From assembly GCA_023128895.1 (NCBI GenBank), contig JAGMDC010000003.1, forward strand, positions 219,651-283,650: DNA of 64,000 nucleotides, read 5' to 3'. This DNA is from Candidatus Parcubacteria bacterium (lineage in GTDB: Bacteria; Patescibacteriota; Minisyncoccia; Minisyncoccales; JAGMDC01). The position numbers and the translations under genes were made by a program. The notes under the pieces were generated by a model. The model worked only from the letters and a program-made list of their open reading frames with translations, ran no database searches and was not told the origin of the DNA. Each line of letters starts with the position of its first letter. Within the stretch, counting starts at the first letter, position 1. This document shows, piece after piece, positions 33,919 to 48,641 of the stretch.

Positions 33919-34014
33919 TTTTTCTTTTTTTCTATCAATTTAATTAAATTCTTTGACTTTTTGTTCAGCTTTATTTTTCATAAATTATTTAAAATAATTT
34001 TTGCCGAATTTGGA

Positions 34015-34863: not shown

Positions 34864-34899
34864 AATTTTATTTTAAATTAATTATTTTTAAAAATTTTC

Positions 34900-35118
34900 T
34901 TAATTTTTTCTTTCATATTTTCTTAATAAATAAAGAATTAAGACAGCAGAAAGAAAATAAGCTAAAACAGGAGTAATGTGATATTCTATACTTAACCAAT
35001 ACCCACTACTATATTCTTTTAATATTCCATTAACAGCCCAAATTACTGTTCCGATTTCAGCAACTTTCGTCCAGTTATTTAATAGCCATCTAAAAATTGT
35101 CTTAATTTTTTCTTTCAT
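34900..35118 (-). CDS. small membrane protein, hypothetical
   Basis: Start at 35118 behind AAAGGAG. Two TM helices. The gene is bracketed by a 28-nt direct repeat. Confidence 0.4.
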   Translation of the reverse strand: MKEKIKTIFRWLLNNWTKVAEIGTVIWAVNGILKEYSSGYWLSIEYHITPVLAYFLSAVLILYLLRKYERKN

Positions 35119-35254
35119 AGATTTACTCCTTTCAGAATTTTTAATCAAATTAAATAACTAAATTTACATGGGCCGTATCGCTGTAAACCCGGTAATTTTT
35201 CTATGATCCGTTGCCCTGACATCTAAAAGATTTTTTATTAACGGACTCACATTT

Positions 35255-38200
35255 TTATTTAAGCTGTTTTTTAAATTCATAATATCTAACCGGGTTCCTT
35301 TGGAACAATCGCACAACAATTTTTTTAACTTGCTTGTTTGTCTTTGGAAAATCTCTCAACAAAGAAATAATTTTATCAGAGTCGTGGATTTCTAATTCTT
35401 TAGGAAATTGAGTAATTAAATCAAAAGCATCTAAAAACTTTTGTTTGTCACCTTGCTGGTCAAAAAGTATTAAAATATCCTCATTATAAAGCGATGGCCA
35501 CCAAGACATCTCCATGGTTTTCTCTTTTCTAAAGTTTTCATCGTAAAAAGTTTTTTCTGTTTTTAAGCATTGAATATATAAATTATACCATTCGTCAAAA
35601 TAGCATTTTTTCTCCATGCCCTCCTTTATGGTCATATAAATAACATTAAACACTTCGTGATTGTATTCTTTAGAAAGATGATTAAGATATTTGTAAGCAA
35701 GATTAAATAATTTCTCTGCGTCTTCTGATTTATAATTTAAATCTCTTATTAAATGTTCAAATTGTACCACAAATGAAAATCTCTGTTTTGGTTCTATCTT
35801 ATCTATCGCCTCAAAAAGTATCTTCTTAAACTTTTTGTCATTATACTTATCAGGGCCTAAATCATTGTAATATTTAGTTGTCTTCCATTTCCAATTTTTA
35901 AAAGCATCCTTTCTAAATTCAGCAAAAAAAATAAATAATGGCGCCGCTTCGGCAATTGCCTCGTCTGGAAACTCTTTGAACCTATTCACAAAAATCAAAG
36001 CATCTTTCTCATTTAAAATTCTGATATGATTAAAAACGGTTAAGATACTTTTTGCTAGAGCCTTTTTAACATTGTCGGAGGCTTTGGCTATATCCATTAA
36101 CAACCTAAATGCTGTCTTCTCAATTTTTTTAGCCCGCTCCAATGCCTCTTTTTTGTCTTTACCAAAAAACAAAACATTTCTATCGTCTGGCAAGACTGTT
36201 AATCTATTCTGTGCTAATTGAGACAATGTAAAACAAGCCATATGCTTCACATACCAATTTTCATCTTTTGTAAGTTTTTCTGTTAAATCAATAAGTTCTT
36301 TAAGATAGTCCCGACCACTTAAAACAGAACATTTCATTAAAACCCAAGCACACCAACCACGAGTAGAAGTAATTGAACCCGGCTCTTTGCCATTCTCAAT
36401 CCTTTGGTGCTCGTTATATTTATTTTCCGGATCTTCAGAATCCTTACCCGGCAAATATGGATCTGGATCATTAATAAATACTTCAATAATTCTTAAAGCT
36501 TCTTTGATTTTCTTATTTCGAGCCAATCTTTCAGAAAACTGAACTAATGCCTCCCGAGCTTGGCTAAAGGTTAATTTTTTAACGATTTTATTTATATCAT
36601 TATCTAAATTATCCAAGAACGGATTTATAAATTCTTTATAAACCTTCTCTAACAACTCAATATCATCTGATTGGTCATTGCCTCTATAATTAAACAAACT
36701 AAAGCATAATATAATTTGCTGATTTTTACTCAAAGTTTTTTGGGTTGCCAACTTTTTTAGAATTTCTAGTCCTTTGGCAAAATCTTTTTTCTCAAAATAC
36801 TTCTTTAAAATATCATGTAATAATATCGCAACCTCATAGGTCTCAAAATTATCGTACTTTTTAATGAACTGTTTCCTGCCAATAAAGTCATTGAACATTT
36901 CAATAGCACTATCAAAATCACTTTCCATTATCGTACGAATATTTTGTATAACATTTATTTCAGCCCTAAATCGTTCATAATATTTAGGATTTTTAAGCCA
37001 TTTCTTTAATTCTTCTTTGGCTTTCTCATGTCCTCGTTTAGCCAATTGCGAAACGATTTCTTCTACAAAAACGCTCACTGGAATACCGTATTTTTCTGTG
37101 CTAACCTCAACCAATTTCCATTTTCTATAGTCAGAAAGATTAGGGCGGTTTCTTAACTCTTGATAAATCAAATCTGTTTTATGGGGAATTCCTCTACGAG
37201 ACAATATAAATTCCTTTAAAATCTCAAAAGCTTCCTCGGATATTTTCCTATTGCTACTTTGATACCTTTCTAAGACAATCGGCAGGGTTGCCCGATTTAA
37301 AAAATCTGGCCTGTTTTTGCTAACTGCTTTTTTTATAACTTTACTTTTGGTTTTAGAATCTGTCTTGCTTATACAATTTTGAAAAATAAATTTCCAAGCC
37401 AAATTTTTATTTTTGCTATCGTTGTAATATTTCTTTATGGCTGGTTCTAAAACGAAACCAATAAAATGTCTATCTCCGACTGTGTAATGATGACCAACCG
37501 ATGAAGTCATCCCGCCGCTCAACTCCCAGCCGTTAAAGATTTCTTTCCCTTTGTGTTTTCCATACAATTCTTGGTATTGAGAAACAAATTTTTTTGTCAG
37601 TTCTTTAAAACGATTTTTGAAATCATCATCCAGCCACTGCTTTAAAATCGTAAAGATATCAGACGGGGTATAGTGGCTGAATTTACCGTCATCTTTTACA
37701 AGGTTGAAAGTATCAACTATCAATTTATATATTTTTTCTCGTAGGATAGAATCCGCTTTTTGATGTACCTCTTTGAGCAACTTTGCTACTTCTCCTCTTT
37801 CCCAAGAACTATCCCGTTGCGCTTTTAAATAGAAAATATCTTCCCGTCTATCGGTAATTAACTTTTTAACAATTTCAAAGACATCATCAATAAATTTATT
37901 ATCTTTATCATTATCTAAAATCTTTTTTGTAATTTTGACGACATCAACATCAAAAAACTCTTGCTGATAAAATCTTCTTATTCTACCAAGATTACTCTTG
38001 AAAAACTCAAGAATATACTTTTTATTGTTTTCTGTATGAAGATTACTTTCAAAAATTCTAAATAAGCTGAAGGAAAAACGATAAATTCTATAAAGTTCCC
38101 ACAGATTATTCCAATCTTTCAAATTATCAATTTTCTTATCCTTTATGCGATCAAGCACAAAGAACATCAGAGCTGGTTTAGACGAGAGAGCAGAAAGAGA

Positions 38201-38929
38201 ACTTTGCGCCCATTCAGGAGCTTTATTGTCCTCTATAGCTGTTATGAGATTTTGCAACTGCACTTCTGTCTTTACGCGCTCATCATCAAAGTATCCACTA
38301 TATTTACTTACCTTTTTTCTGATAGATTCAATCTCATTGAGAATACCTTCCTTACGATAAATCGCGCCTTTTGCCGACCCTTCGTAAATCCTTTTTATAA
38401 GGATGCTATTCGCTTTAGATTCTAACTCATCTTCTGGTAGCCAAAAATCTAACAACTCACTAAACAAAGAGTAAACGATAAGATGGTTATCTTTTTCTTG
38501 GACTTGCCAGAATCTTACTTTATTCAGTGTAGCAATCTGTTGGTTGGAGAATTTTTTCTTCTTGAATTCAGGAGTTACAAATTCGCTCCAATATTTCATG
38601 TTTTCAACTTTGCTTTTTAGAGTTTTATTTAATTTGGTGCAGACAATTAGTATTTCGTCTTTTTCACTAATAGTAGTTTTTTTCAGAATGGAATTCAAAA
38701 TATTCTTTAGGTGTGAGAAGTTTAACTCTCCTTCCCAATTTTTTGATTCGCATATTATTTTACGTTCATCATTAAACACTAAATTAAAGTCCTCAAACTT
38801 AGGAGCTTCAAGTTGGATATAAGAAAAATTAAAATCACGAAGATACTGTAAAAACAACGACATTGCCGCCCACGCTTGCGCATTTATTCCTTTATAATTG
38901 TATTGTCCTTGTTTACTCATAATCTCCAT
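35255..38929 (-). CDS. giant (1224 aa) protein: N-terminal Cap4/DUF4297-like PD-(D/E)xK module plus long helical/HEAT-like region
   Basis: N-terminus YKGINAQAWAAM..., FEDF...CESK. The rest is alpha-helical with no named motif. An alternative start at 38920 gives an ATGAGTAA overlap. Confidence 0.6.
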   Translation of the reverse strand: MEIMSKQGQYNYKGINAQAWAAMSLFLQYLRDFNFSYIQLEAPKFEDFNLVFNDERKIICESKNWEGELNFSHLKNILNSILKKTTISEKDEILIVCTKLNKTLKSKVENMKYWSEFVTPEFKKKKFSNQQIATLNKVRFWQVQEKDNHLIVYSLFSELLDFWLPEDELESKANSILIKRIYEGSAKGAIYRKEGILNEIESIRKKVSKYSGYFDDERVKTEVQLQNLITAIEDNKAPEWAQSSLSALSSKPALMFFVLDRIKDKKIDNLKDWNNLWELYRIYRFSFSLFRIFESNLHTENNKKYILEFFKSNLGRIRRFYQQEFFDVDVVKITKKILDNDKDNKFIDDVFEIVKKLITDRREDIFYLKAQRDSSWERGEVAKLLKEVHQKADSILREKIYKLIVDTFNLVKDDGKFSHYTPSDIFTILKQWLDDDFKNRFKELTKKFVSQYQELYGKHKGKEIFNGWELSGGMTSSVGHHYTVGDRHFIGFVLEPAIKKYYNDSKNKNLAWKFIFQNCISKTDSKTKSKVIKKAVSKNRPDFLNRATLPIVLERYQSSNRKISEEAFEILKEFILSRRGIPHKTDLIYQELRNRPNLSDYRKWKLVEVSTEKYGIPVSVFVEEIVSQLAKRGHEKAKEELKKWLKNPKYYERFRAEINVIQNIRTIMESDFDSAIEMFNDFIGRKQFIKKYDNFETYEVAILLHDILKKYFEKKDFAKGLEILKKLATQKTLSKNQQIILCFSLFNYRGNDQSDDIELLEKVYKEFINPFLDNLDNDINKIVKKLTFSQAREALVQFSERLARNKKIKEALRIIEVFINDPDPYLPGKDSEDPENKYNEHQRIENGKEPGSITSTRGWCAWVLMKCSVLSGRDYLKELIDLTEKLTKDENWYVKHMACFTLSQLAQNRLTVLPDDRNVLFFGKDKKEALERAKKIEKTAFRLLMDIAKASDNVKKALAKSILTVFNHIRILNEKDALIFVNRFKEFPDEAIAEAAPLFIFFAEFRKDAFKNWKWKTTKYYNDLGPDKYNDKKFKKILFEAIDKIEPKQRFSFVVQFEHLIRDLNYKSEDAEKLFNLAYKYLNHLSKEYNHEVFNVIYMTIKEGMEKKCYFDEWYNLYIQCLKTEKTFYDENFRKEKTMEMSWWPSLYNEDILILFDQQGDKQKFLDAFDLITQFPKELEIHDSDKIISLLRDFPKTNKQVKKIVVRLFQRNPVRYYEFKKQLK

Positions 38930-39704
38930 CTGGTGGTAATATGCTTGGCTTTTTAAAAGATGGTTTTTTGATACTAACCTCTAATGATTCATCAATTGGC
39001 AACTCAATTTTTACAAATTTCCGATCTCCGAACCTATCTTGCTTGCTAAATCCTTGGGACGAGATAATTTTATGTATTATATTTTTTAAAGCCACCTTCT
39101 CAATTCGTCTTTCTTCTATTCTAGTCTTGGAGGATAATTCTTCAATTTTATCTTTTAATCGGAAAATAAAATTATCAATGAGGGAGGGTAGTAAATCTTG
39201 GTCTTTGGGATAATATTTTTCTAAAACTTCCTTAGCGAGGCCATAAACCAAACGCTGAATATCTTTTTCTGAAAAGATTCTATAATCCAATTTTATCGTG
39301 CTTAAATCAACGTCTTTCAAAGCCGTTGAAAAGTATTTTTCATCTATAGAGCTTACGCTCTTTATAGTTCTGTCGCCGGATAGTTTAACCACTAAAAAAC
39401 TAAACGACTTAACCGGCTCATCTTGAAAAATAAAATAAATAAAACAATTTTTCGGTATAGTTCTGATATATGTTAAGAAAAACTTAAAGATACTGTTTAG
39501 TTCTCGAGCGGATAAATCCTTTTGTGTTTTGACTTGATACCCTTCAAAATCAGAGGCCAGCCAAATTTCAAAATCCAATTTATCATTTTCGCAAATTAAG
39601 TATTCTAAAGAGCTGTTATTCTCTAAATAATGGTTCAGTAAAAAGTATATAGCGCACCAATCTTGATATCGGAAAGCATTTTGTGCTGAGACGCCGTTAC
39701 TCAT
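38913..39704 (-). CDS. Cap4/DUF4297-like nuclease-domain protein
   Basis: N-terminus AFRYQDWCAIYFLL, ENDKLDFE...GYQVKTQ (D...QxK variant). Confidence 0.5.
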   Translation of the reverse strand: MSNGVSAQNAFRYQDWCAIYFLLNHYLENNSSLEYLICENDKLDFEIWLASDFEGYQVKTQKDLSARELNSIFKFFLTYIRTIPKNCFIYFIFQDEPVKSFSFLVVKLSGDRTIKSVSSIDEKYFSTALKDVDLSTIKLDYRIFSEKDIQRLVYGLAKEVLEKYYPKDQDLLPSLIDNFIFRLKDKIEELSSKTRIEERRIEKVALKNIIHKIISSQGFSKQDRFGDRKFVKIELPIDESLEVSIKKPSFKKPSILPPDGDYE

Positions 39705-39710
39705 AGTTGA

Positions 39711-39785
39711 TTATATTTTTTCTACAATTTTAATCTCCTCCAATGTAAGGCCATAGAGTTTATAAACTTCTTCGTTTATTTTTTG
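39711..39785 (-). pseudogene. relic of a methyltransferase/type IIG enzyme C-terminus (QKINEEVYKLYGLTLEEIKIVEKI*)
   Basis: An in-frame 24-codon remnant bounded by TGA upstream, with no start codon. Lies 6 nt before the 38913-39704 gene. Confidence 0.5.
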
Positions 39786-39789
39786 TCAA

Positions 39790-41253
39790 TTAATATATTT
39801 CGATTGGTTTCTCGTAAATTTTTTCTGACACATATTCAATCAATAAATCAAAAAACAAATCTGATATATTTGCTTCTACCCTATTCGCTGCTCCTATTTT
39901 TTTAGCAATACTCTTTATTTTTCGATTTTCGATTTCTATTGAATATCCATTCCACCCATGTTTTAGATTACTTTCAGTCTCTTCGAACGGAGAAATTGTT
40001 TTTAAGAGATAGTAAGAAAATACATCATAGCCCCTTGTAGTATTTTCTTTATTCTTAATATCGTTTTTTATTTTCTTTAAAACAGAAACAAAATCAATTT
40101 TCATACCGCCGAAAATTGAAATAAAAAATTTAATGCCAATATTTATAATTTGTGAGATAACCGTATATCTACCGCCAAATGAATCCTTTCTATAATTTGA
40201 ATTTTTTAAAATTGGTATTTGATATTTCACGCCTTTTAATAATTGCCTCAAATCCAATTTTTCTTTTCCATCTAATTCCAGAGATTTTAATAAAATATCT
40301 TTTAAGAATATCGTTAAGAAGAATGCTGAATTATTTAATTCTTTACTTAAATTCTCATTCTCTGTTTGAAAACGCGAAATAATTTCATTCATTGCCTCTT
40401 CAATAATTTCTTCATTCTTAAACTGGAAAATTTCTACAGTGAAAAATTTATTAAAATATCCACTAAAATCAGTTTGCTCTCCATATTTATGATGAAAAAT
40501 ACTTTTTAGGTTTTGAATATCGGCAACAAGAATGATTTTATCAAAACCAAATTTATTTGGCAGTTCCTTATTTTGTAAATCAAAATGAGCGGAAAAAACA
40601 TTCAAAATTCTAAAAATATGTTCCGGGTCAATTCTTTCTAAATCATCTAAAATTAAAATACTTTGTTTCTCATTTTTTTGTTTTTGAATCTTTTCTCTCA
40701 ATAATTCGCTTAAATAATCTGTTTCTGCAATATTTTCTTCTTTGATTTTTTTCAAAAAATTTTCAATAATACCTTTTTCTCCCGCTTCAATCTTTTGTTT
40801 AAATGTCCAAAAATTTTCTACTAATTTTGCGGTTTCTTTTAGGGGCCGCCCTAGTTTTGGAATATACGAAAGCCCATTCTTAAATATTTCTGTAAAGTTA
40901 TTTTTGCCCCAAACAAAAAATAGCCGTTGCAGATCAATCAAATTATTATAATCATTCTCTTGAAAAATATCTTTGTTCTTTCTATTAAGTTCAACCAAAA
41001 TATCATATTTTAAAAATTCGGAAATGTCTTCATTTGAATTTATTTGATAATTAATAGGAGAAAAATGAAAAACTTCATACTCTTCTTGATTGGCTCTAAA
41101 AAACTCTTTCAAAAAATATGTTTTCCCGATTCCAAATTTTCCAGAAAACAAAATTCGGCTATTATCTTTTATTTCTAAATGTTCTTTAAATTTAGGGAAT
41201 AATTCTTCAATTGGAATTTTAAATTCTTCTTCTATTATTTTTTTATTTTCCAT
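39790..41253 (-). CDS. KAP-family P-loop NTPase
   Basis: Walker A GKFGIGKT and Walker B ILILDDLERIDPEHIFRILN, which is typical of KAP NTPases. Confidence 0.8.
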   Translation of the reverse strand: MENKKIIEEEFKIPIEELFPKFKEHLEIKDNSRILFSGKFGIGKTYFLKEFFRANQEEYEVFHFSPINYQINSNEDISEFLKYDILVELNRKNKDIFQENDYNNLIDLQRLFFVWGKNNFTEIFKNGLSYIPKLGRPLKETAKLVENFWTFKQKIEAGEKGIIENFLKKIKEENIAETDYLSELLREKIQKQKNEKQSILILDDLERIDPEHIFRILNVFSAHFDLQNKELPNKFGFDKIILVADIQNLKSIFHHKYGEQTDFSGYFNKFFTVEIFQFKNEEIIEEAMNEIISRFQTENENLSKELNNSAFFLTIFLKDILLKSLELDGKEKLDLRQLLKGVKYQIPILKNSNYRKDSFGGRYTVISQIINIGIKFFISIFGGMKIDFVSVLKKIKNDIKNKENTTRGYDVFSYYLLKTISPFEETESNLKHGWNGYSIEIENRKIKSIAKKIGAANRVEANISDLFFDLLIEYVSEKIYEKPIEIY

Positions 41254-41386: not shown

Positions 41387-41797
41387 TTAATTGTTTCTTG
41401 ATAAAAAATTGACAATCTTTTCAATTGTTTCGTCTGGCTTTTTAAATACTTCTTTCTCCCAAACTCTCAAGACCTTCCAGCCTTCTCTTCTCAGGGCCAA
41501 CCCATTTTTTCTGTCTTTCTTTATATTATTTTCAATCTTTGCTAGCCAATATTTTTTAGGCAATCTTTTCTTTTGCTTCGAGAAATTTCGTCCGTGCCAA
41601 AAATCTCCGTCTATAAATACAGCCTTCTTTTTTCTCGGTAAAGCTACATCCGGCTTTCCACTCGCTTTCTTGTAATGTTTTTGGAAATAAATTCCCCGCT
41701 TCCGAAGTTCGCGAAAAATCAGCCTTTCAACTTTTGTATTTTCGGAGCGGATTTTCGACATTATTTCGCTTCTTTTCTTTTTTGTAAAAACATCCAT
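41387..41797 (-). CDS. vsr: very short patch repair endonuclease
   Basis: RSEIMSKIRS, FIDGDFWHG motifs. Confidence 0.9.
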   Translation of the reverse strand: MDVFTKKKRSEIMSKIRSENTKVERLIFRELRKRGIYFQKHYKKASGKPDVALPRKKKAVFIDGDFWHGRNFSKQKKRLPKKYWLAKIENNIKKDRKNGLALRREGWKVLRVWEKEVFKKPDETIEKIVNFLSRNN

Positions 41798-41889
41798 AAT
41801 TTTTTATACCCTGTGGATAACTACCGCTTTGAGTTTCGGTTTTCATTCGGGTATAATTAAATTATAACGCAAATAATTTTTATAGCAAT

Positions 41890-43470
41890 ATGCAAACTCT
41901 AACAAAAAAGCAAAAACAAGTTTTTGATTTCATTAATGCCTATAGGGAGGAAAACGGAATTTCCCCTACCATCGAAGAAATGAGGAAAAAATTGAAGCTT
42001 AAAGCCGTATCGACAGTGCATGAACATGTAAATACGCTAAAAGAAAAAGGCTATCTCTCAAAAAATGAAAATTCTGCTCGAGGAATTGTTCTAAAAAAAG
42101 AGATAAGGATAATTATTGACATTCCTATTGTAGGCAGAATAGCTGCTGGACAGCCTATAGAAGCTATCGAGGATTTTCAGGAAACTGTCCCCGTGCTGAA
42201 TCCAACAATTAAAAATTCAAAAGACTATTATGCTCTTCGCGTTATCGGAGATAGCATGATTGGCGAAGGCATTTTTGACGGCGATATTGTGATAATTAAG
42301 AAACAGACTGTTGCGGAGAATGGGCAAACGGTTGTAGCGATTATCGACGACAATGAAGCAACGCTTAAAAAACTTTATAGAGAGAAAAATAGGTTCCGGC
42401 TTGAACCAAGAAATACCAGCATGCTTCCGCTTTTTAGAAAGGAGGTCGAAGTAAGAGGCGTAGTCATCCAAGTAATAAGCAATATTTCCAGCAAGCCTGA
42501 AGGAAAAATTTTGAAAAAGGCTAATCACAGATTTAGAACTATAGATCTTTTTGCAGGCATCGGAGGAATACGCATTGGTTTTGAGAAAGCCGGATTTAAT
42601 ACTGTTTTTGCGAATGATTTTGACAAACAATGCAAGCTTACTTATGATTTGAACTTTTCAAAATCAAAACTCGTAGTTGAAGACATAAGAAAGATTGGCA
42701 TAGATGATCTGCCGAGGTTTGACTTTTTGCTCGGCGGCTTTCCCTGCCAAGCATTTTCTATTGCCGGATATAGGCAGGGATTTGACGATAAAAAGGGGCG
42801 CGGAAATTTATTTTTTGATATTGCGCACATTATTGACGCTCGCAAGCCGGAGGGTTTTCTTCTCGAAAATGTAAAAAATCTAAAAAGCCATGACGGAGGA
42901 AAAACTTTTAGAATAATCGAAGAAACCTTGAAAAATCTTGGCTATCATATAAAGCCTAGGGTCTTAAACAGTATGAATTACGGGGATATTCCGCAGAATC
43001 GAGAACGAATCTATATCGTAGGTTTCAAAAATAAAGATTATGCCGATAAGTTTTCTTTTCCCGATCCAGTAAGGCTGACGAAAAAAATCACTGATTTATT
43101 AGAGAAAAACGTCCAGGAAAAATATTACTATAATGGAAAACCTTTATATAAAAAGTTGGAAAAATTTGTGAAAGAAGAGGGAAAGGTATATCAATGGCGC
43201 AGGCAATATGTTCGCGAGAATAAAAGCGGTGTCTGCCCGACGCTCACGGCAAATATGGGCATGGGAGGGCACAATGTGCCTATTATCAAAGACAAGAAAG
43301 GCATTAGAAAGTTAACCCCATTAGAATGCGCTCGGGTCCAAGGCTTCCCAGAAAATTATAAACTGCCTCAAATTTCAGATTCTGCTCTATATAAACAATT
43401 TGGAAACTCGGTAAGCGTTCCAGTTATTGAAGCTGTGGCAAGACAAATGATAAAAGCGATGAAAAATTAA
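41890..43470 (+). CDS. fusion protein: complete LexA repressor (wHTH + S24 peptidase) joined to DNA (cytosine-5) methyltransferase
   Basis: The N-terminal ~200 aa are LexA-like (Ala-Gly site RIAAGQP, GDSM Ser, ATLKKL Lys). The C-terminal part carries C5-MTase motifs DLFAGIGG, GFPCQAFS, ENV and QFGNSV. It is a single uninterrupted 526-aa ORF. Confidence 0.9.
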   Translation: MQTLTKKQKQVFDFINAYREENGISPTIEEMRKKLKLKAVSTVHEHVNTLKEKGYLSKNENSARGIVLKKEIRIIIDIPIVGRIAAGQPIEAIEDFQETVPVLNPTIKNSKDYYALRVIGDSMIGEGIFDGDIVIIKKQTVAENGQTVVAIIDDNEATLKKLYREKNRFRLEPRNTSMLPLFRKEVEVRGVVIQVISNISSKPEGKILKKANHRFRTIDLFAGIGGIRIGFEKAGFNTVFANDFDKQCKLTYDLNFSKSKLVVEDIRKIGIDDLPRFDFLLGGFPCQAFSIAGYRQGFDDKKGRGNLFFDIAHIIDARKPEGFLLENVKNLKSHDGGKTFRIIEETLKNLGYHIKPRVLNSMNYGDIPQNRERIYIVGFKNKDYADKFSFPDPVRLTKKITDLLEKNVQEKYYYNGKPLYKKLEKFVKEEGKVYQWRRQYVRENKSGVCPTLTANMGMGGHNVPIIKDKKGIRKLTPLECARVQGFPENYKLPQISDSALYKQFGNSVSVPVIEAVARQMIKAMKN

Positions 43471-43473
43471 AAG

Positions 43474-44037
43474 CTACCAGACTTTTACATCGATTGCTGT
43501 CGGTTTAAGCTTCTTGGGCTTGATAATTTTTTTTGTAATGCTAAAACGAGGCCTTCTTCCCTGGGCTTGTTGCTGTCTAAACGTCTGTTTTTTATTAACC
43601 TTGATATTGTAGACTAACCTCGACGGTATCTTATAAATATTGAAAGTTCCGTCTAGCTTTCCGTTGTTGTAAAAATCTAAAAAATACAAATCATTCCAGC
43701 ATGATTTCGGCCCGAAAGAAGTAAGGTCCGATTCAACGCTAGAAGCCTTTACTTGCTCTGCCTTGTTCATACCTAAGTTAAAAGTGTCAAACGAAGCAGG
43801 AGAACTTCCCTGTAAAGAGATAAATCTCTTTGATCCCGAATATATGCAAAAAGCAACCTCTGAAAGACCTTCCGGAAAATTGGGTTCTCTGGATTTGTAA
43901 TCCCGCATGCCCAATTTTAGCTTTTTCCACATATTAAAAAGCCTTTTCCATTTTTTGCCATCCGCCTTTGTAAAGCTCATTAGCTCTATTATGCAGTTTT
44001 TTCCGAAAACTCTCGCTTTGTATTTTTTAATTTTCAT
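43474..44037 (-). CDS. putative type II restriction endonuclease
   Basis: Assigned by position: downstream of the controller HTH gene and convergent with the C5-MTase. 187 aa with no family assignable by eye. Confidence 0.4.
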   Translation of the reverse strand: MKIKKYKARVFGKNCIIELMSFTKADGKKWKRLFNMWKKLKLGMRDYKSREPNFPEGLSEVAFCIYSGSKRFISLQGSSPASFDTFNLGMNKAEQVKASSVESDLTSFGPKSCWNDLYFLDFYNNGKLDGTFNIYKIPSRLVYNIKVNKKQTFRQQQAQGRRPRFSITKKIIKPKKLKPTAIDVKVW

Positions 44038-44043
44038 AAGTCT

Positions 44044-44265
44044 TTACTTAATGAAAAAATCTAAAGATTTTTTATAAATCCTAGCAAATTCTTTCAGCGC
44101 AACAACGTCAATCCGCCTCTGCCCGGCTTCAACCTTTGAAACATGAGATTGTGTCTTGCCAAGCAATTTGGCAACTTCCGCTTGCTCTAAACCGGCCTCT
44201 TGGCGGGCTTTTTTTAATTGCTCTACAATATATTTATGGTCCTTTGAGTAAATTGCTTTAGACAT
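44044..44265 (-). CDS. XRE-family HTH protein, R-M controller (C protein)-like
   Basis: LEQAEVAKLLGKTQSHVSKVEAGQR HTH motif. 73 aa, directly upstream of the putative REase. Confidence 0.7.
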   Translation of the reverse strand: MSKAIYSKDHKYIVEQLKKARQEAGLEQAEVAKLLGKTQSHVSKVEAGQRRIDVVALKEFARIYKKSLDFFIK

Positions 44266-44340
44266 ATCTATATTTATATTCTATATTCCATTATGTTATA
44301 TTCCAAATTGTCATATAATAATAAAAAAGTTTTCATGTTT

Positions 44341-44790: not shown

Positions 44791-45414
44791 TTATTCCGTA
44801 GAAAAATTTTGGGAAAGTTTTTCTAAAATTTTGAAATCTTCTTTCAGAATTTTTTTCATATCTGGGTTATAGGTTGCTACTGCCGGATGATAAAAAGGGA
44901 TAATTTTTACGCTCTGAAAAATGGCTTGCGTGTCAAAAATCTTTCCGTGGATTTTGCTTATCCCCTGGATTTTTTCAGCCAAACCGAATTTCTCTAAAAT
45001 AAAAGCAGTAGAATAATTGCCTAAGGTACAAATTATTTTCGGCTTAATGATTTTATATTGCCTCAAAAGATAAGGAGAATACGCGTCTATTTCTTCCGGC
45101 TTTGGATTGCGATTTTCTGGTGGTCGGTCTTTTAAGATATTGGTAATATAAACCTCTTCTCTTTTAATTCCTACTGTGTCTAAAAGTTCATCTAAAATTT
45201 TACCGGCTGCCCCGCAAAAAGGACGGCCGGTTTTCGCCTCGTTCAGTCCCGGCGCCTCGCCAATAAACATAATTCGCGCCTGATGATTTCCTTCCCCAAT
45301 AACCGGCAAAAACTTGTTTTTTGTCCTGTATTCATAAAGCGGACATTTTTTACAATTCAAAACCTCGTCTCTAATTTTTTTCAGCTCTTGGTCTATTTTT
45401 TCTAAATTTTTCAT
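44791..45414 (-). CDS. family 4 uracil-DNA glycosylase
   Basis: CKKCPL, GEAPG...GRPFCGAAG and HPA motifs. Confidence 0.85.
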   Translation of the reverse strand: MKNLEKIDQELKKIRDEVLNCKKCPLYEYRTKNKFLPVIGEGNHQARIMFIGEAPGLNEAKTGRPFCGAAGKILDELLDTVGIKREEVYITNILKDRPPENRNPKPEEIDAYSPYLLRQYKIIKPKIICTLGNYSTAFILEKFGLAEKIQGISKIHGKIFDTQAIFQSVKIIPFYHPAVATYNPDMKKILKEDFKILEKLSQNFSTE

Positions 45415-45421
45415 AGATGAT

Positions 45422-46066
45422 TTATGTGTTTAAGTTCATATCCTTGCCTTCTAAAACAATCATAGCGTGAAAATCTCTATAAACTTTAATGTCTTGGGGT
45501 AAATTTTTCTGAAATAACTCCTGAAGGCGGGCATAAAAAAGGTCCTGGGTTAGATTATGCTTTTTAACAAAACGACGGGTATATTCATCAATCACAAACA
45601 CAGGTTTATCTAAGGCATAAAGCAGGATATCATCAGCTGTTTCCGGACCTATTCCTTTTTGCGCCAGCAATTCTTTTCTCAATTTGTCTGTCGGCGCCGC
45701 AATAGCCTCCTTAACGCCCTTATAATTTTGAATAAAGAATTTTGAAATTTCAAAAAGATAATTTGCTTTCTGCTGATAGAAGCCGGAAGGCCTGACTAAT
45801 TGAGCTAATTCATTTTTGTTTGTTTTACTAAAATCATAAATGTTGCGTAGCGAACATATTTTACTCTGTTTCAGTCTGTCTATTGCCAAATCAACATTTT
45901 TCCAATTCGCGCGTTGGGCCAAAATTGCTCCAATAATTACTTCCTCTCTTTCTAAAAGCGTTTTCTGTCTTTTGCACCACAATTTCCACTGGCCTTCTGG
46001 ATTGCCGTATTTTGAATAAAGCTGTTTATACAATTCTTGAATTTTATTTGTTTCTTGTTTTTTCAC
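45422..46066 (-). CDS. HhH-GPD superfamily DNA glycosylase (endonuclease III-related)
   Basis: KGIGPETADDILLYAL...VIDEYTRR motif. Confidence 0.7.
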   Translation of the reverse strand: MKKQETNKIQELYKQLYSKYGNPEGQWKLWCKRQKTLLEREEVIIGAILAQRANWKNVDLAIDRLKQSKICSLRNIYDFSKTNKNELAQLVRPSGFYQQKANYLFEISKFFIQNYKGVKEAIAAPTDKLRKELLAQKGIGPETADDILLYALDKPVFVIDEYTRRFVKKHNLTQDLFYARLQELFQKNLPQDIKVYRDFHAMIVLEGKDMNLNT

Positions 46067-46090
46067 TTTGAATTGATTTTACTGCGAATT

Positions 46091-47245
46091 TTAATTTGCT
46101 GGTTTGATTCGCTGGATAATTTTTTGCTTTTCAGAAAAAGGGATTTTCATTTTTCGGACAACATTTTGAAAAAAATCAATCGTAGAATCATAAGTTGGGC
46201 GGTCTACAAAATAAGGAGTGCCGTCCTTGCCGCCATGCGCAAAAGAATAGCGGGCAGGATCTTCATATGATGGATTAGCTCCATAAATCACTTCCGAAAC
46301 CAAACTCAAAGCCCTGATTGTTTTTGGTCCTACTCCTTTCAATGATAATAGTTTTTCATAGTTTTCTGGTTTTTGGTCGCAAACTTGGAACAAAATTTTG
46401 TCTAAATATCTACTTTTAGAAAAATTCTCCAATAAAACAGGGTGCCAAGAAAATTCTTTATTTTCTAAATGGAGCAGTGTGGTTTTTTCTTTTTTAAATT
46501 TCAAAGCGAGCATATAAGACAAATCCGAAGAATGTTTTCTTAAAATTTGGATATCTTTCATTAAACTAAAATAATTTCCTTGGACTAATTCTGTGCTTAT
46601 TTCCCGCGCCTTCCCACTCTCCTCGGCTGTAAGATTTAAGGCGGCTGCTTTTCTCTGACTGGCAATTCCGGAATGCGGCTCGCAAACCAAGTCGGTAATC
46701 TTTTTAGAATACCAGTGATAACGTCGGGCTGTCTGATTATTAACATTCATCCCCTGCTGAACTACTGCCCAAGCGCCATTTTGAGAGAAAAAGAAGCTAT
46801 GGTGATAGATCTGATAACTATCCTGAATCAATGCGCTGTCAACTTTGGCCGTCATTTTTGAGTTATAAACGAGGTTATTAATATCCGGAGCCGGCAAACT
46901 TAAAGCCGCTCCCCATCTTTCAATTTCCTCCGGGGTTTTTCTGGAAATTTTTCCTTTGCCTCCGCAGATAAAAACGCCTAAATTCCTTTCGTCGCCCCTG
47001 ATTGCTTCTTTTAGGGCTGCAGTTAAAATCGTAGTCAAACCGCTGGCGTTCCAATCAAAAGCCAAAACAGTGCCCAAAGATTGAAACCAAACTGGATCAG
47101 ATATTCGTTTGATAAACTCATCTGGACCATATTCTTCAACGACTATTTCTGTAATTTCTCGACCTAATTTTACCATCCTGTCAAACAGCCATTTTGGGCA
47201 CTTTCCATAATCTAAAGTAAAAGTGGCAATACCTTTTTCAATCAT
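46091..47245 (-). CDS. DUF763 domain protein with C-terminal HhH
   Basis: The N-terminus GKCPKWLFDRM...DPVWFQS...DWNASGLTT matches my recollection of DUF763. C-terminal LKGVGPKTIRAL. Confidence 0.65.
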   Translation of the reverse strand: MIEKGIATFTLDYGKCPKWLFDRMVKLGREITEIVVEEYGPDEFIKRISDPVWFQSLGTVLAFDWNASGLTTILTAALKEAIRGDERNLGVFICGGKGKISRKTPEEIERWGAALSLPAPDINNLVYNSKMTAKVDSALIQDSYQIYHHSFFFSQNGAWAVVQQGMNVNNQTARRYHWYSKKITDLVCEPHSGIASQRKAAALNLTAEESGKAREISTELVQGNYFSLMKDIQILRKHSSDLSYMLALKFKKEKTTLLHLENKEFSWHPVLLENFSKSRYLDKILFQVCDQKPENYEKLLSLKGVGPKTIRALSLVSEVIYGANPSYEDPARYSFAHGGKDGTPYFVDRPTYDSTIDFFQNVVRKMKIPFSEKQKIIQRIKPAN

Positions 47246-47321
47246 ATTCTTTCTTTTATCTTATCAAAAAATCGCCTCTGCGGACAGGGCGATTAACGAT
47301 TAGTTTAGTGCGGTAATTAAT

Positions 47322-47723
47322 TTAACACTCAACAATCTTTACTATTATTTTTCTTTGTTCTCTGGGTCCGTCTAACTCAACTAAAAATATCTGCTGCCAG
47401 GTCCCCCGAATTAATCTGTTATTTTCAATCATTAAAGTTTTCCCCTGCCCCAACAAGCCGGAAAGAATATGGGAATCAGCGTTATTGTCAATTTTATTAT
47501 GAAGAAAATCAAAACCCGAAACTAATTTTTCCAACACCGCGAGCCAGTCCTGTTTTAAACCGGATTCATTCTCCGTTAAAATAATACCTGCCGTAGAATG
47601 AGGGACAAAAATCAAAACCAATCCATTTTTTACTTTGCTTTCTCTAACCACTCCCTCTACCCTGTCTGTAATATCAATCAATTGATATCTATCTTCAGTT
47701 GAAACATAAAACTCTTTAATCAT
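47322..47723 (-). CDS. YjbQ/UPF0047 family protein (secondary thiamine-phosphate synthase-like)
   Basis: VPHSTAGIILTENE...NADSHI motifs. Confidence 0.8.
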   Translation of the reverse strand: MIKEFYVSTEDRYQLIDITDRVEGVVRESKVKNGLVLIFVPHSTAGIILTENESGLKQDWLAVLEKLVSGFDFLHNKIDNNADSHILSGLLGQGKTLMIENNRLIRGTWQQIFLVELDGPREQRKIIVKIVEC

Positions 47724-47828
47724 ATTTTTATCACTCTTTATCCAATTATAACAAAAAACCGCCTCCTTGACGATTTTTTTTGGTGCGGTTCGGTCGCCCG
47801 AACCAAGCTCAATGTTTCATAAATAATT

Positions 47829-48641
47829 TTATTTTTGGCATATCGGACAATATATCGCCGCTCTGCCGGCAATAATTTCTCTTTTTAATTTATGGTTTTT
47901 ATTTCGAGGACATTCCATATCTTTATGTCGATGAGATAAAAGCCAATCGGTCTCAAATCGTATTCCATACATTCCATAAGAGGGCCTAATCTCAATCGCC
48001 TCTCTTAGAGCATTTATCGTACCTTGATATAAGTTCTGTTTTTCAATTTTAGATAAAGTTTCAATAATTCGGTGGGGATTGATTTTAGCTCGGAAAAGTA
48101 TCTCGTCAGAGTATATATTGCCAATTCCGGCAATATTTCTTTGGTCCAGCAAAAATGCTTTTATATTTTTGTTTTGGCATTTTCTCAAAAGTTCAAAAAA
48201 CTGTCTTTCAGAAATCTGCAACGGCTCCGGGCCTAACTCTTTAATTAGCTCTACGGATTCCGGATCTTTTTTTAAATAAATTTTTCCCAGCTTTCTTACA
48301 TTAAGCCACCGCAGTTCTTCATTATTATCAAATTTAAAAATTAAACGGCTAAATCTGTCTCTCCCCTTTCTCTCTGTATCTTGCTCGGCATAGCTTAAGC
48401 CGCCGGTCATGCCAAAATGAATAATCAGTTTTTCCGGAATCCTTGCAATGTCTATTATTAGAAATTTTCCCCTGCGCCGGACGTCTTTAAATTTTTTCTC
48501 CATCAACTTTTTCTTAAAATCAGAAAATCTCACCTCTTTAATCAAACTGGGGGTGCTGCACTCTATCGCAGTGATTTTCTTATTAAGGCCATTTCTTCTA
48601 AAATATACTTTGAAATTTTCTACATCAGGCAACTCCGGCAT
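47829..48641 (-). CDS. mutM: formamidopyrimidine-DNA glycosylase (Fpg/Nei family)
   Basis: MPELPDVE N-terminus, H2TH region and a C-terminal zinc finger ending CPICQ. Confidence 0.85.
   Translation of the reverse strand: MPELPDVENFKVYFRRNGLNKKITAIECSTPSLIKEVRFSDFKKKLMEKKFKDVRRRGKFLIIDIARIPEKLIIHFGMTGGLSYAEQDTERKGRDRFSRLIFKFDNNEELRWLNVRKLGKIYLKKDPESVELIKELGPEPLQISERQFFELLRKCQNKNIKAFLLDQRNIAGIGNIYSDEILFRAKINPHRIIETLSKIEKQNLYQGTINALREAIEIRPSYGMYGIRFETDWLLSHRHKDMECPRNKNHKLKREIIAGRAAIYCPICQK

What the first reader, a model, noticed from the sequence alone, without database searches (positions are those of the whole stretch)
41387..44265. R-M module whose C5 methyltransferase is fused to a complete, apparently autocleavable LexA
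ORF 41890-43470 is one uninterrupted 526-aa frame.
- **N-terminal half (aa 1 to ~200):** a full LexA, with the winged HTH, the Ala-Gly cleavage site (RIAAGQP), the GDSM serine and the ATLKKL lysine.
- **C-terminal half:** all hallmark C5-MTase motifs (DLFAGIGG, GFPCQAFS, ENV, QFGNSV).

It is flanked by vsr (divergent), a convergent small putative REase, and an XRE-type controller gene.

N-terminal HTH extensions that autoregulate MTases are known, but a whole S24-peptidase LexA is not something I recognise. RecA-stimulated self-cleavage would detach the DNA-binding domain from the MTase, potentially wiring methylation or restriction balance to the SOS response.

Two possible operators lie in the promoter region:
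- CTGT-N8-ACCG (41812-41827), a weak candidate.
- An inverted repeat TATACCC/GGGTATA (41806-41812 and 41850-41856) overlapping the TATAAT -10 box.
Basis: partly seen in the sequence, partly recalled or inferred. Interest (0 to 1): 0.7.

Follow-up and report, generated by a model that had tools for sequence, protein, structure and literature searches.

The report
LexA-fused cytosine methyltransferase restriction module
A restriction-modification system of uncultivated CPR bacteria whose protective DNA methyltransferase is permanently fused to a complete, seemingly self-cleaving SOS repressor (LexA); this probably lets the cell raise methylation when its own DNA is damaged, and I found no published description of it.

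Summary
ORF 41890-43470 encodes one 526-aa protein with a full-length LexA (wHTH plus S24 peptidase; NCBIfam lexA equivalog 182 bits, cut-off 111) joined to a complete C5 DNA methyltransferase. It is not an assembly error. The identical protein occurs on at least 10 independent contigs. More than 120 protein clusters and at least 80 species-representative CPR/Patescibacteria genomes carry the same ~525-aa architecture at 70-92% identity.

Across 79 orthologues the Ala-Gly cleavage site, Ser122, Lys160 and the MTase catalytic motifs are invariant or nearly so, although synonymous sites are saturated. That indicates strong purifying selection.

The conserved candidate is a direct repeat, TTCGG-N6-TTCGG (41835-41850), inside the -35/-10 spacer. 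It is present in 74 of 81 promoters and essentially nowhere else in 1.2 Mb, so the LexA module looks like a private autorepressor rather than a global SOS regulator.

The fusion gene sits stop-to-stop with at least eight unrelated convergent partner genes (Bsp6I-like here), which swap frequently. The target is probably GCNGC.

RecA-triggered cleavage that derepresses the methyltransferase is inferred, not shown. No publication describing the fusion was found.

The parts
41387..41797 (-). vsr (very-short-patch T:G mismatch endonuclease), divergent from the fusion gene. It is an optional accessory, present in only about 8-13 of ~80 related loci.
   Evidence: Pfam Vsr 83.6 bits; TIGR00632 104 bits. 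Occurrence in relatives.
41812..41820 (+). TGTGGATAA, the exact reverse complement of the DnaA-box consensus TTATCCACA, just upstream of the -35 element. Its function here is unknown; it may be a DnaA input.
   Evidence: An exact 9-mer at a fixed position (about -78 from the ATG) in 48 of 81 promoters. It is the only copy in the window. L076 has four exact copies next to a dnaA gene.
41829..41857 (+). Predicted sigma-70-type promoter of the fusion gene: TTGAGT (41829-41834), a 17-nt spacer, then TATAAT (41852-41857).
   Evidence: Promoter scan, 10 of 12 matches. TATAAT is present in 68 of 81 promoters and the region is conserved across loci, even though synonymous sites are saturated.
41835..41850 (+). 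Candidate operator of the LexA domain: the direct repeat TTCGG-N6-TTCGG (period 11 nt), which fills the -35/-10 spacer.
   Evidence: Present in 74 of 81 promoters at a fixed position, with only 2 other exact hits in 1.2 Mb on both strands. PWM information content is 30 bits, and non-own hits are at shuffle level. It is the only match in the window even with 1 mismatch allowed. Divergent loci keep the repeat in reversed orientation downstream of the -10 box.
41860..41889 (+). Conserved 5' leader block (consensus aAATTGTAGCgcAAA..., here AAATTATAACGCAAA). On the minus strand it overlaps a promoter-like site, TTGCTA-16-TATAAT (41888..41861), that points towards vsr.
   Evidence: Its function has not been established.
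41890..43470 (+). LexA-C5 methyltransferase fusion gene (526 aa).
41890..42084 (+). LexA winged-HTH DNA-binding domain (aa 1-65). The recognition-helix residues A39, S41, T42, H44 and H46 are invariant among 41 close homologues.
   Evidence: Pfam LexA_DNA_bind 60.5 bits; invariant columns; aligns to E. coli LexA residues 1-65.
42145..42150 (+). Ala86-Gly87, the predicted self-cleavage bond (equivalent to E. coli A84-G85).
   Evidence: Ala in 79 of 79 and Gly in 78 of 79 orthologues; alignment to LexA structures in the PDB.
42124..42468 (+). S24 peptidase / LexA C-terminal domain (aa 79-193), with Ser122 (42253-42255) and Lys160 (42367-42369).
   Evidence: Pfam Peptidase_S24 103 bits. Ser122, Met123 and Lys160 are each conserved in 79 of 79 orthologues.
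42481..42531 (+). Poorly conserved interdomain linker (aa 198-214).
   Evidence: Mean pairwise identity 0.36, against 0.68-0.84 for the domains.
42532..43455 (+). C5 cytosine DNA methyltransferase domain (aa 215-522). It contains motif I DLFAGIGG, motif IV GFPCQ (Cys286 at 42745-42747), motif VI ENV, the target-recognition domain (TRD, about aa 386-470) and motif X QFGNSV.
   Evidence: Pfam DNA_methylase 314 bits, covering model positions 1-324 of 324. Best PDB match is M.HhaI at 206 bits. Catalytic motifs are invariant in 79 of 79 orthologues. TRD mean identity is 0.84.
43474..44037 (-). Bsp6I-family Type II restriction endonuclease (187 aa), convergent with the fusion gene, with 3 nt between the two stop codons.
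   Evidence: Pfam RE_Bsp6I 39 bits; PADLOC REase_II 106 bits. It is the partner family in 27 of ~80 loci.
44044..44265 (-). XRE/HTH_3 protein (73 aa) immediately upstream of the REase and on the same strand. It is probably a C (controller) protein.
   Evidence: Pfam HTH_3 53 bits. Weak matches to C.BclI (E = 1.9e-4) and to PADLOC Control_protein (22 bits). It follows the partner gene in about 25 loci.

Best explanation
This is a Type II restriction-modification module, with GCNGC as the probable target. Its methyltransferase carries its own damage-sensitive repressor.

**Shown by sequence analysis**
- One polypeptide combines a complete LexA (wHTH plus S24 self-cleaving domain) with a complete C5 MTase.
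- The Ala-Gly bond, the Ser/Lys dyad and the MTase catalytic residues are under strong purifying selection across hundreds of CPR genomes.
- A 16-bp direct repeat, TTCGG-N6-TTCGG, fills the -35/-10 spacer of the gene's own promoter. It travels with the gene and is found essentially nowhere else.
- The gene always abuts a convergent nuclease-type partner gene, stop codon to stop codon.

**Inferred**
1. The protein dimerises through its S24 domain and binds the direct repeat through the wHTH. This represses its own promoter and keeps MTase levels low and steady.
2. When DNA is damaged, RecA-ssDNA filaments stimulate self-cleavage at A86-G87. Damage here includes breaks made by the cognate REase at unmethylated sites, and repair or recombination that produces unmethylated DNA.
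3. Cleavage removes the wHTH, which ends in ...IAA, like the ClpX-recognised VAA end of the E. coli LexA N-terminal fragment. An S24-MTase fragment remains. The promoter is derepressed and MTase activity rises. This would be a built-in 'restriction alleviation' loop for a Type II system.
4. There is no room for a terminator between the convergent genes, so stronger M transcription may also interfere with R transcription.
5. The C protein (where present) times REase expression, and Vsr (where present) repairs T:G mismatches arising from 5mC deamination.
For: **Architecture and reality of the fusion**
-.
- More than 120 clusters at 90% identity, all ~525 aa with all three Pfam domains.
- 80 of the 80 best species-representative genome loci are full-length fusions across CPR lineages.

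**Selection**
- A86 79/79, G87 78/79, S122 79/79, K160 79/79; PCQ and ENV invariant.
- Four-fold-site identity is 0.35 against 0.30 expected by chance, while amino-acid identity is 0.76.
- The fusion is 72-84% identical where FtsI-like, MurF and ABC proteins from the same genome pairs are 34-49% identical.

**Operator**
- The direct repeat is in 74 of 81 promoters, inside the spacer of a predicted promoter.
- It is the only match in the window.
- The PWM search finds nothing above shuffle level in 1.2 Mb, apart from the gene's own promoters in three divergent loci. In those loci the repeat is retained in reversed orientation with TTCGA half-sites. In the two of them that are in the protein alignment (L074, L080), the recognition helix is also changed, from STIHEH to STAHHH.
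- Direct-repeat LexA operators with an 11-nt period are known: GTTC-N7-GTTC in Alphaproteobacteria (PMC8565304).

**R-M context**
- RE_Bsp6I / PADLOC REase_II partner here.
- NgoFVII-type and PD-(D/E)XK partners elsewhere.
- Stop-to-stop junctions in all partner classes.
- Other database proteins fuse RE_Bsp6I directly to a related MTase.
- GCWGC is among the most depleted 5-mers in the pooled host DNA under Markov orders 1-3.

**Background**
- MTases that repress their own promoters are established, and so is SOS induction by unbalanced Type II R-M activity (review PMC3874152).
Against: - No experiment or expression data exists. Binding of the LexA domain to the direct repeat, RecA dependence of cleavage, and the stability and activity of the S24-MTase fragment are all unverified.
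- No recA gene lies in the window or in the 1.2 Mb of flanks, so the presence of RecA in these genomes rests on general knowledge.
- The direct repeat could instead be bound by another factor, and the conserved TGTGGATAA could be the LexA-domain site. However, that box is absent from about 40% of promoters, while the repeat is nearly universal.
- The GCNGC assignment is indirect. In the window alone GCNGC is not depleted under a dinucleotide null (146 observed against 124 expected), and GCSGC depletion depends on the model.
- Five partner families have no recognisable nuclease domain.
- The AlphaFold model was too poor to use (pLDDT 59.6).
Confidence: 0.5

Rival explanations
1. The LexA module is only a built-in autorepressor and dimerisation domain, a larger version of the N-terminal HTH of SsoII-type MTases. 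Self-cleavage is either not used physiologically or is slow and RecA-independent, serving protein turnover rather than damage sensing.
For: The operator is private to the gene's own promoter and there is no sign of an SOS regulon. Autorepressing MTases are well established (PMC3874152). No recA was seen nearby.
Against: The scissile Ala-Gly bond, Ser122 and Lys160 are invariant or nearly so in 79 orthologues, although synonymous sites are saturated and the rest of the LexA half varies at 68-73% identity. That pattern is expected only if catalysis itself is under selection.
Confidence: 0.2
2. Damage-triggered suicide. Cleavage destabilises or inactivates the MTase, which acts as the 'antitoxin'. 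After RecA activation, for example during phage infection, methylation lapses and the stable REase kills the cell, as in post-segregational killing or abortive infection.
For: The architecture is the same as in the main explanation. The module lies in a defence island containing PDC-S19, a Cas4-like nuclease, an LmuA/Cap4-like nuclease and a KAP NTPase. From background knowledge, both LexA cleavage fragments are protease substrates in E. coli, and the analogy between R-M and toxin-antitoxin systems is established (PMC3874152).
Against: Cleavage also removes the repressor's DNA-binding domain. Synthesis of new MTase should therefore rise, which opposes loss of methylation. Existing methylation persists until replication. 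Nothing in the sequence points to an unstable MTase fragment.
Confidence: 0.12
3. The fusion is the host's master SOS repressor. CPR cells that carry it use it to control DNA-repair genes genome-wide, and the MTase comes along as cargo.
For: NCBIfam scores it as a lexA equivalog and NCBI names it 'transcriptional repressor LexA'. It is more conserved than housekeeping genes. In this window it lies next to base-excision-repair genes: UDG, EndoIII-like and Fpg.
Against: The operator occurs only in the gene's own promoter across 1.2 Mb of flanks and the 64-kb window. The genomic context differs in almost every genome and the gene always travels with a nuclease partner, which is R-M behaviour. The 345 matched stretches were not set against the number of CPR species in the collection, so how patchy the distribution is remains unmeasured. 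Whole genomes could not be inspected, so this explanation is not excluded.
Confidence: 0.08
4. Assembly or sequencing artefact: two adjacent genes, lexA and dcm, were joined by a frameshift or a lost stop codon.
For: None found.
Against: The identical 526-aa product is on 10 contigs from independent assemblies. Every one of the more than 120 protein clusters and 80 genome loci has the same ~525-aa fused frame, and synonymous divergence is saturated.
Confidence: 0.01

Closest known systems
SsoII-type autoregulatory C5 methyltransferases (M.SsoII, M.Ecl18kI, M.EcoRII, M.MspI, M.ScrFIA)
   Same: The MTase of a Type II R-M system carries an N-terminal DNA-binding extension that binds an operator in its own promoter and represses M transcription (review PMC3874152). 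Here a conserved private operator lies in the M promoter spacer.
   Different: Those extensions are short HTH regions with no protease domain and no known signal input, and they typically act on a divergent M/R intergenic region. Here the extension is a full 200-aa LexA with an intact S24 autoprotease, the R gene is convergent, and regulation could respond to DNA damage.
LexA (SOS repressor, TIGR00498), including direct-repeat-binding LexAs of Alphaproteobacteria
   Same: Full-length match above the equivalog cut-off. The wHTH, the Ala-Gly site and the Ser/Lys dyad are all present. The candidate operator is a 16-bp element with two half-sites at an 11-nt period, like GTTC-N7-GTTC (PMC8565304).
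   Different: It is fused to a 310-aa enzyme. The operator was found only at the gene's own promoter, with no repair regulon detected. The half-site sequence (TTCGG) and the recognition helix differ from those of characterised LexAs. It behaves as part of a mobile R-M module.
Bsp6I / Fnu4HI (GCNGC) and NgoFVII (GCSGC) Type II R-M systems
   Same: The REase here belongs to Pfam RE_Bsp6I, and another partner family carries the NgoFVII C-terminal domain. The MTase is a typical HhaI-like C5 enzyme. Pooled host DNA is depleted in GCWGC and, under higher-order models, in GCSGC.
   Different: As far as I know, the MTases of those characterised systems are not LexA fusions. The specificity here is inferred, not measured.
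C-protein-controlled convergent R-M systems (for example Esp1396I) and SOS-linked restriction alleviation of Type I systems
   Same: A C-R operon is convergent with M. Conceptually, restriction activity would be damped after DNA damage, which is when unmethylated DNA is produced.
   Different: In Esp1396I the C protein also regulates M, whereas here M appears to regulate itself. Type I restriction alleviation works by proteolysis of HsdR, not by derepressing a MTase. Both comparisons rest on background knowledge, not on tests made here.

Membership tests
LexA repressor (TIGR00498 / PF01726 + PF00717) | N-terminal winged-HTH LexA DNA-binding domain | tested here: met
   PF01726, 60.5 bits against a cut-off of 23.7, aa 1-65 covering model positions 1-65 of 65.
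LexA repressor (TIGR00498 / PF01726 + PF00717) | C-terminal S24 peptidase domain with a Ser/Lys dyad and an Ala-Gly scissile bond | tested here: met
   PF00717, 103 bits. Alignment to E. coli LexA maps A84-G85, S119 and K156 to A86-G87, S122 and K160. These residues are invariant or nearly so in 79 orthologues.
LexA repressor (TIGR00498 / PF01726 + PF00717) | Whole-protein score above the equivalog cut-off | tested here: met
   181.8 bits against 110.95, covering model positions 1-202 of 203.
LexA repressor (TIGR00498 / PF01726 + PF00717) | RecA-stimulated self-cleavage | not testable with these tools
   This needs biochemistry. No recA gene lies in the sequence available.
LexA repressor (TIGR00498 / PF01726 + PF00717) | Controls a regulon of DNA-repair genes through a shared operator | tested here: not met
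   The operator PWM and the exact pattern occur only at the gene's own promoter in the 64-kb window and 1.2 Mb of flanks. Whole genomes were not available, so a remote regulon cannot be fully excluded.
LexA repressor (TIGR00498 / PF01726 + PF00717) | Stand-alone protein of about 200 aa | tested here: not met
   The protein is 526 aa with a C-terminal MTase in every orthologue.
C5 cytosine DNA methyltransferase (PF00145 / TIGR00675) | Conserved motifs I, IV (PCQ catalytic Cys), VI (ENV), VIII, IX and X, with a variable TRD | tested here: met
   PF00145, 314 bits over the full model; TIGR00675, 337 bits. Best PDB match is M.HhaI at 206 bits. The motifs are invariant.
Type II restriction-modification system | Adjacent cognate restriction endonuclease | tested here: met
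   RE_Bsp6I, 39 bits against a cut-off of 25; PADLOC REase_II, 106 bits. The REase is tail-to-tail with M, 3 nt apart. Whether the two enzymes share a specificity is inferred.
Type II restriction-modification system | Defined recognition sequence methylated by M and cut by R | tested here: inconclusive
   GCNGC is inferred from REase family homology. Depletion of GCWGC is robust in the pooled flanks, but GCSGC depletion depends on the model, and the window alone is not depleted under a dinucleotide null.
SsoII-like autoregulatory MTases | N-terminal DNA-binding region of the MTase binds an operator in its own promoter | tested here: inconclusive
   A conserved private direct repeat lies in the promoter spacer. 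Binding was not tested.
SsoII-like autoregulatory MTases | Short HTH extension homologous to that of M.SsoII; divergent M/R promoters share the operator | tested here: not met
   The extension is LexA wHTH plus S24, and R is convergent rather than divergent.
C (controller) proteins of R-M systems | Small HTH_3 protein encoded just upstream of and co-oriented with the REase; homology to known C proteins; a C-box operator | tested here: inconclusive
   Position and HTH_3 match are met. Matches to C.BclI (E = 1.9e-4) and to PADLOC Control_protein (22 bits) are weak. The C-box was not analysed.
Vsr endonuclease | Match to the Vsr family models above their cut-offs | tested here: met
   PF03852, 83.6 bits against 27; TIGR00632, 104.1 bits against 97.85.

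The most novel reading that the evidence does not exclude
A Type II R-M system with a built-in SOS sensor. RecA-triggered self-cleavage of the MTase's own LexA domain boosts methylation after DNA damage or self-restriction and, through terminator-less convergent transcription, damps the REase. This would be the first 'restriction alleviation' mechanism for Type II systems. In addition, the strongly conserved LexA-MTase gene acts as a fixed docking platform next to which unrelated REase cassettes of matching specificity are repeatedly exchanged in CPR bacteria.
Probability: 0.35. Interest if true: 0.8.

Novelty: new variant of a known kind. Interest (0 to 1): 0.64.

Why it matters
Unbalanced Type II R-M activity is known to induce the SOS response. 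What has not been described is a Type II system that senses that signal and corrects itself. A MTase fused to an intact LexA would close that loop within a single polypeptide.

The family is abundant in CPR/Patescibacteria, more conserved than cell-wall and division genes in the same genomes, and yet is routinely annotated as plain 'LexA' or plain 'Dcm'. That mislabelling has two consequences:
- SOS-regulon reconstructions and defence-system censuses in these uncultivated bacteria may misread it.
- A tractable prediction is being overlooked, because the protein is small and should be expressible in E. coli.

The observation that one conserved MTase pairs with at least eight unrelated partner genes, with very frequent swapping, is also a clean natural example of how REases of shared specificity are recruited and replaced.

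Tried and rejected
Rejected.
- **Canonical SOS boxes** (GAAC-N4-GTTC, CTGT-N8-ACAG, GTTC-N7-GTTC, TGTTC-N4-GAACA) in 1.2 Mb of flanks: at shuffle level.
- **PWM search for further operator sites (a regulon):** nothing above shuffle level. The two extra exact hits (L045, L077) lie inside genes and look like chance.
- **Second LexA in the same genomes:** the only two extra S24 hits are not canonical LexA. One is a 698-aa protein with a C-terminal S24 domain (L035). The other is a LexA-like repressor next to a short gene I judged TIR-like by eye, in a recombinase-bearing element (L049). Whole genomes could not be fetched.
- **recA:** absent from the window and the loci.
- **Phage origin:** viral contigs hold only unfused MTase relatives.
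- **AlphaFold2 on a 41-sequence alignment:** mean pLDDT 59.6, so no fold search was run.
- **NCBIfam and PDB searches for the unannotated partner families:** no hits.
- **GCNGC avoidance in the window alone:** not supported under a dinucleotide null. Only the pooled, higher-order analysis supports it.
- **Literature:** eight full-text searches found no description of the fusion. The most relevant paper (Sanchez-Osuna, Barbe & Erill 2017, Environ Microbiol 19:3465, on the Patescibacteria LexA regulon) is not held and could not be checked.

Full report

Yes. Window 41890-43470 (+) is a single 526-aa ORF.

- Pfam finds LexA_DNA_bind (aa 1-65), Peptidase_S24 (aa 79-193) and DNA_methylase (aa 215-522, full model), all far above their gathering scores.
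- NCBIfam's lexA equivalog model matches end to end at 181.8 bits (cut-off 111). The dcm model scores 337 bits.
- Alignment to solved LexA structures maps E. coli A84-G85, S119 and K156 onto A86-G87, S122 and K160. The MTase half is most like M.HhaI.

A frameshift artefact is excluded. The identical protein is encoded on 10 contigs from independent assemblies, and every close homologue has the same fused frame.

**2. How widespread is it?**

- The 120 best protein clusters (at 90% identity) are all about 525 aa, 77-92% identical, and carry all three domains. Their sources name them either 'transcriptional repressor LexA' or 'DNA (cytosine-5)-methyltransferase 1'.
- In one-genome-per-species GTDB contigs, 345 stretches encode a relative. 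The best 80 are all full-length fusions at 70-86% identity. They come from many CPR/Patescibacteria lineages: Paceibacteria, and Nomura-, Moran-, Uhr-, Falkow-, Giovannoni-, Staskawicz-, Vogel-, Zambryski- and Shapirobacteria.
- An exhaustive HMMER search of 1.84 billion 50%-identity representatives collapses the family to essentially one representative (P0121). The exception is one divergent 777-aa variant that adds an Eco57I-like MTase (P0201). This points to a single origin.
- Viral contigs contain only unfused MTase relatives.

**3. Selection**

Among 79 aligned orthologues:

| Region | Mean pairwise identity |
|---|---|
| wHTH | 0.68 |
| S24 core | 0.73 |
| Interdomain linker | 0.36 |
| MTase core | 0.83 |
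| TRD | 0.84 |

- A86, S122, M123 and K160 are each conserved in 79 of 79, G87 in 78 of 79, and the PCQ, ENV and DLFAG motifs are invariant.
- Four-fold degenerate sites are saturated: identity 0.349 against 0.298 expected by chance. The conservation is therefore long-term purifying selection, not a recent sweep.
- In the same genome pairs, housekeeping neighbours are far more diverged. An FtsI-like protein is at 34%, MurF at 49% and an ABC ATPase at 38%, against 73-82% for the fusion.
- Invariance of exactly the autoproteolysis residues argues that self-cleavage itself is selected.

**4. Promoter and operator**

About 90 bp upstream of the ATG is conserved across loci despite the synonymous saturation. 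In the window the elements are:

- TGTGGATAA at 41812-41820.
- A -35 box, TTGAGT, at 41829-41834.
- The direct repeat TTCGG-N6-TTCGG at 41835-41850, which fills the 17-nt spacer.
- A -10 box, TATAAT, at 41852-41857.
- A conserved leader block, consensus AATTGTAGCgcAAA.

Evidence that the direct repeat is the operator:

- It is in 74 of 81 promoters at a fixed position. It occurs only twice more, inside genes, in 1.2 Mb scanned on both strands. In the window it is the only match even with one mismatch allowed.
- A 30-bit PWM finds nothing beyond shuffle expectation. The exception is three divergent loci (L074, L080, L088), where the same repeat lies in the gene's own promoter in reversed orientation, downstream of the -10 box, with TTCGA half-sites.
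- In the two of those loci that are in the protein alignment (L074, L080), the recognition helix reads STAHHH instead of STIHEH. The E45 position aligns with a base-contacting residue of E. coli LexA. This is anecdotal covariation.
- Direct-repeat LexA operators with the same 11-nt period are known in Alphaproteobacteria (PMC8565304).

I conclude that the repeat is the most likely operator of the LexA domain, and that the domain acts as a private autorepressor.

TGTGGATAA is the exact DnaA-box consensus. It is present in 48 of 81 promoters at a fixed position. One locus (L076) has four exact copies clustered beside a dnaA gene, so these organisms appear to use that box. Its role at this promoter is unexplained.

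**5. The partner genes**

In nearly every locus the fusion gene is followed by a convergent gene whose stop codon abuts or overlaps its own. The gap is 0 in 28 loci and -4 in 10, and it is rarely more than 10.

| Partner cluster | Approx. length | Loci | Annotation |
|---|---|---|---|
| c1 | 187 aa | 27 | Bsp6I-like |
| c4 | 389 aa | 11 | NgoFVII C-terminal domain |
| c5 | 280 aa | 9 | none |
| c6 | 350 aa | 9 | none; PD-ExK-like motif |
| c9 | 347 aa | 7 | none; PD-ExK-like motif |
| c13 | 149 aa | 6 | PDDEXK_5 |
| c41 | ~280 aa | 3 | none |
| c51 | ~313 aa | 3 | none |

- TRD identity is the same within partner classes as between them (0.848 against 0.834). This points to one methylation specificity served by many nucleases.
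- Swapping is frequent. Of 142 locus pairs whose MTases are at least 85% identical, 93 have different partner families. The nearest MTase neighbour shares the partner in only 24 of 74 cases.
- L029 retains about 30 bp of a c1-type 3' end in front of a c6 gene. L030 and L047 carry c6 remnants.
- The C protein follows the partner in about 25 loci, and vsr precedes the fusion in about 8-13. Both are therefore optional.

**6. Target**

From my own background knowledge, Bsp6I cuts GCNGC and NgoFVII cuts GCSGC. Other database proteins fuse RE_Bsp6I directly to a related MTase.

- In the pooled 1.2 Mb, GCAGC/GCTGC rank 13th, 5th and 1st lowest of 1,024 5-mers under Markov orders 1, 2 and 3.
- GCCGC/GCGGC rank 297th, 27th and 3rd under the same models.
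- In the window alone, a dinucleotide null shows no depletion: 146 sites observed against 124 ± 10 expected.

GCNGC, or at least GCWGC, is therefore a reasonable but unproven target.

**7. Mechanism**

*Shown:* the architecture, the selection on the catalytic residues of both halves, the private conserved repeat in the promoter spacer, and the obligatory tail-to-tail nuclease partner.

*Inferred:*
- S24-mediated dimers bind the repeat and repress the M promoter.
- RecA filaments stimulate cleavage at A86-G87. These filaments form after damage, after self-restriction, or after recombination that creates unmethylated DNA.
- The wHTH fragment, which ends in IAA, is released and M is derepressed.
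- Read-through into the convergent R gene may lower REase expression.

This would amount to restriction alleviation for a Type II system. Autorepressing MTases and SOS induction by unbalanced R-M activity are both documented (PMC3874152).

*Rivals:*
- A repressor and dimeriser only, without damage sensing. The invariant catalytic residues argue against this.
- Damage-triggered loss of methylation leading to suicide.
- A master SOS regulator. The private operator and the R-M-like behaviour argue against this, but whole genomes were not available.
- An assembly artefact, which is refuted.

**8. Comparison and novelty**

It works like an SsoII-type autoregulated MTase but fails that family's membership test. 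Its extension is a whole LexA rather than a short HTH, and the R gene is convergent. It passes the sequence-level tests for LexA but fails two others: it is neither a stand-alone protein nor, on current evidence, a controller of a repair regulon.

No paper describing the fusion was found in eight full-text searches. The 2017 Patescibacteria LexA-regulon paper could not be read and may mention it.

I rate it a new variant of a known kind. It is common in databases, apparently undescribed, and directly testable.

Noticed in passing
window 41812-41820: TGTGGATAA, the exact DnaA-box consensus, sits just upstream of the -35 of the fusion promoter. It is conserved at a fixed position in 48 of 81 related promoters despite saturated synonymous divergence. 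This suggests an unexplained DnaA (replication-cycle) input into MTase expression.
   Followed up: partly
L076 12936-16146 and 17316-17579: Four exact TGTGGATAA boxes cluster next to a dnaA gene about 1.4-4.6 kb downstream of the fusion gene. This is probably an oriC region, and it indicates that these CPR genomes use the canonical DnaA box.
   Followed up: partly
window 32950-41253: There is a defence island immediately upstream of the R-M module. It contains PDC-S19/DUF3644 (32950-33918, 428 bits), a Cas4-like PD-(D/E)XK nuclease (34015-34863), an unannotated 1221-aa protein (35255-38920), an LmuA/Cap4-like nuclease (38913-39704) and a KAP-family NTPase/PDC-S20 (39790-41253).
   Followed up: partly
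window 44791-48641: A run of base-excision-repair genes lies just downstream: UDG (44791-45414), HhH-GPD/EndoIII-like (45422-46066), DUF763 (46091-47245), YjbQ, and Fpg (about 47829-48641). An Fpg gene also lies a few kb downstream of the fusion in L007.
   Followed up: no
window 53069-53288 (-): A group I catalytic intron (Rfam RF00028, 80 bits, full-length model). Its host gene was not examined.
   Followed up: no
window 41860-41889: The leader between the -10 box and the ATG is conserved (consensus AATTGTAGCgcAAA) for no known reason. On the minus strand it overlaps a promoter-like site, TTGCTA-16-TATAAT (41888..41861), that would read through the operator towards vsr.
   Followed up: partly
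L029 around the fusion stop codon; also L030 and L047: These look like footprints of REase cassette replacement or decay. L029 keeps about 30 bp of a Bsp6I-type (c1) 3' end ahead of a c6 partner gene. L030 and L047 retain only c6-like remnants, which would leave an orphan fusion MTase.
   Followed up: partly
P0217, P0253 (database proteins): An RE_Bsp6I nuclease domain is fused N-terminally to a related C5 MTase (567 and 539 aa). These are single-chain R-M enzymes from the same MTase clade.
   Followed up: no
P0201 (777 aa): A divergent second version of the fusion: LexA wHTH plus S24, a C5 MTase, and an Eco57I-like N6-adenine MTase segment.
   Followed up: no
L035 3051-5147 (-); L049 3287-3994 (-): Other S24 fusions or neighbours occur in the same genomes. 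L035 has a 698-aa protein with a C-terminal S24 peptidase; its N-terminal part looked NTPase/helicase-like to me by eye but was not scanned. L049 has a stand-alone LexA-like repressor beside a short gene I judged TIR-like by eye, in an element that has a serine recombinase.
   Followed up: partly
9 loci, e.g. L036 (immediately upstream), L049, L072, L075: A large serine recombinase (cluster c7, about 450 aa; Resolvase + Recombinase + Zn_ribbon_recom) lies within one or two genes of the fusion in several genomes. This hints at how the module, or its neighbours, move.
   Followed up: no
window 44266-44330 (- strand, upstream of the C gene): A direct repeat, TGGAATATA ... TGGAATATA, lies just upstream of the controller-gene start. 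It may be a C-box and was not analysed.
   Followed up: no
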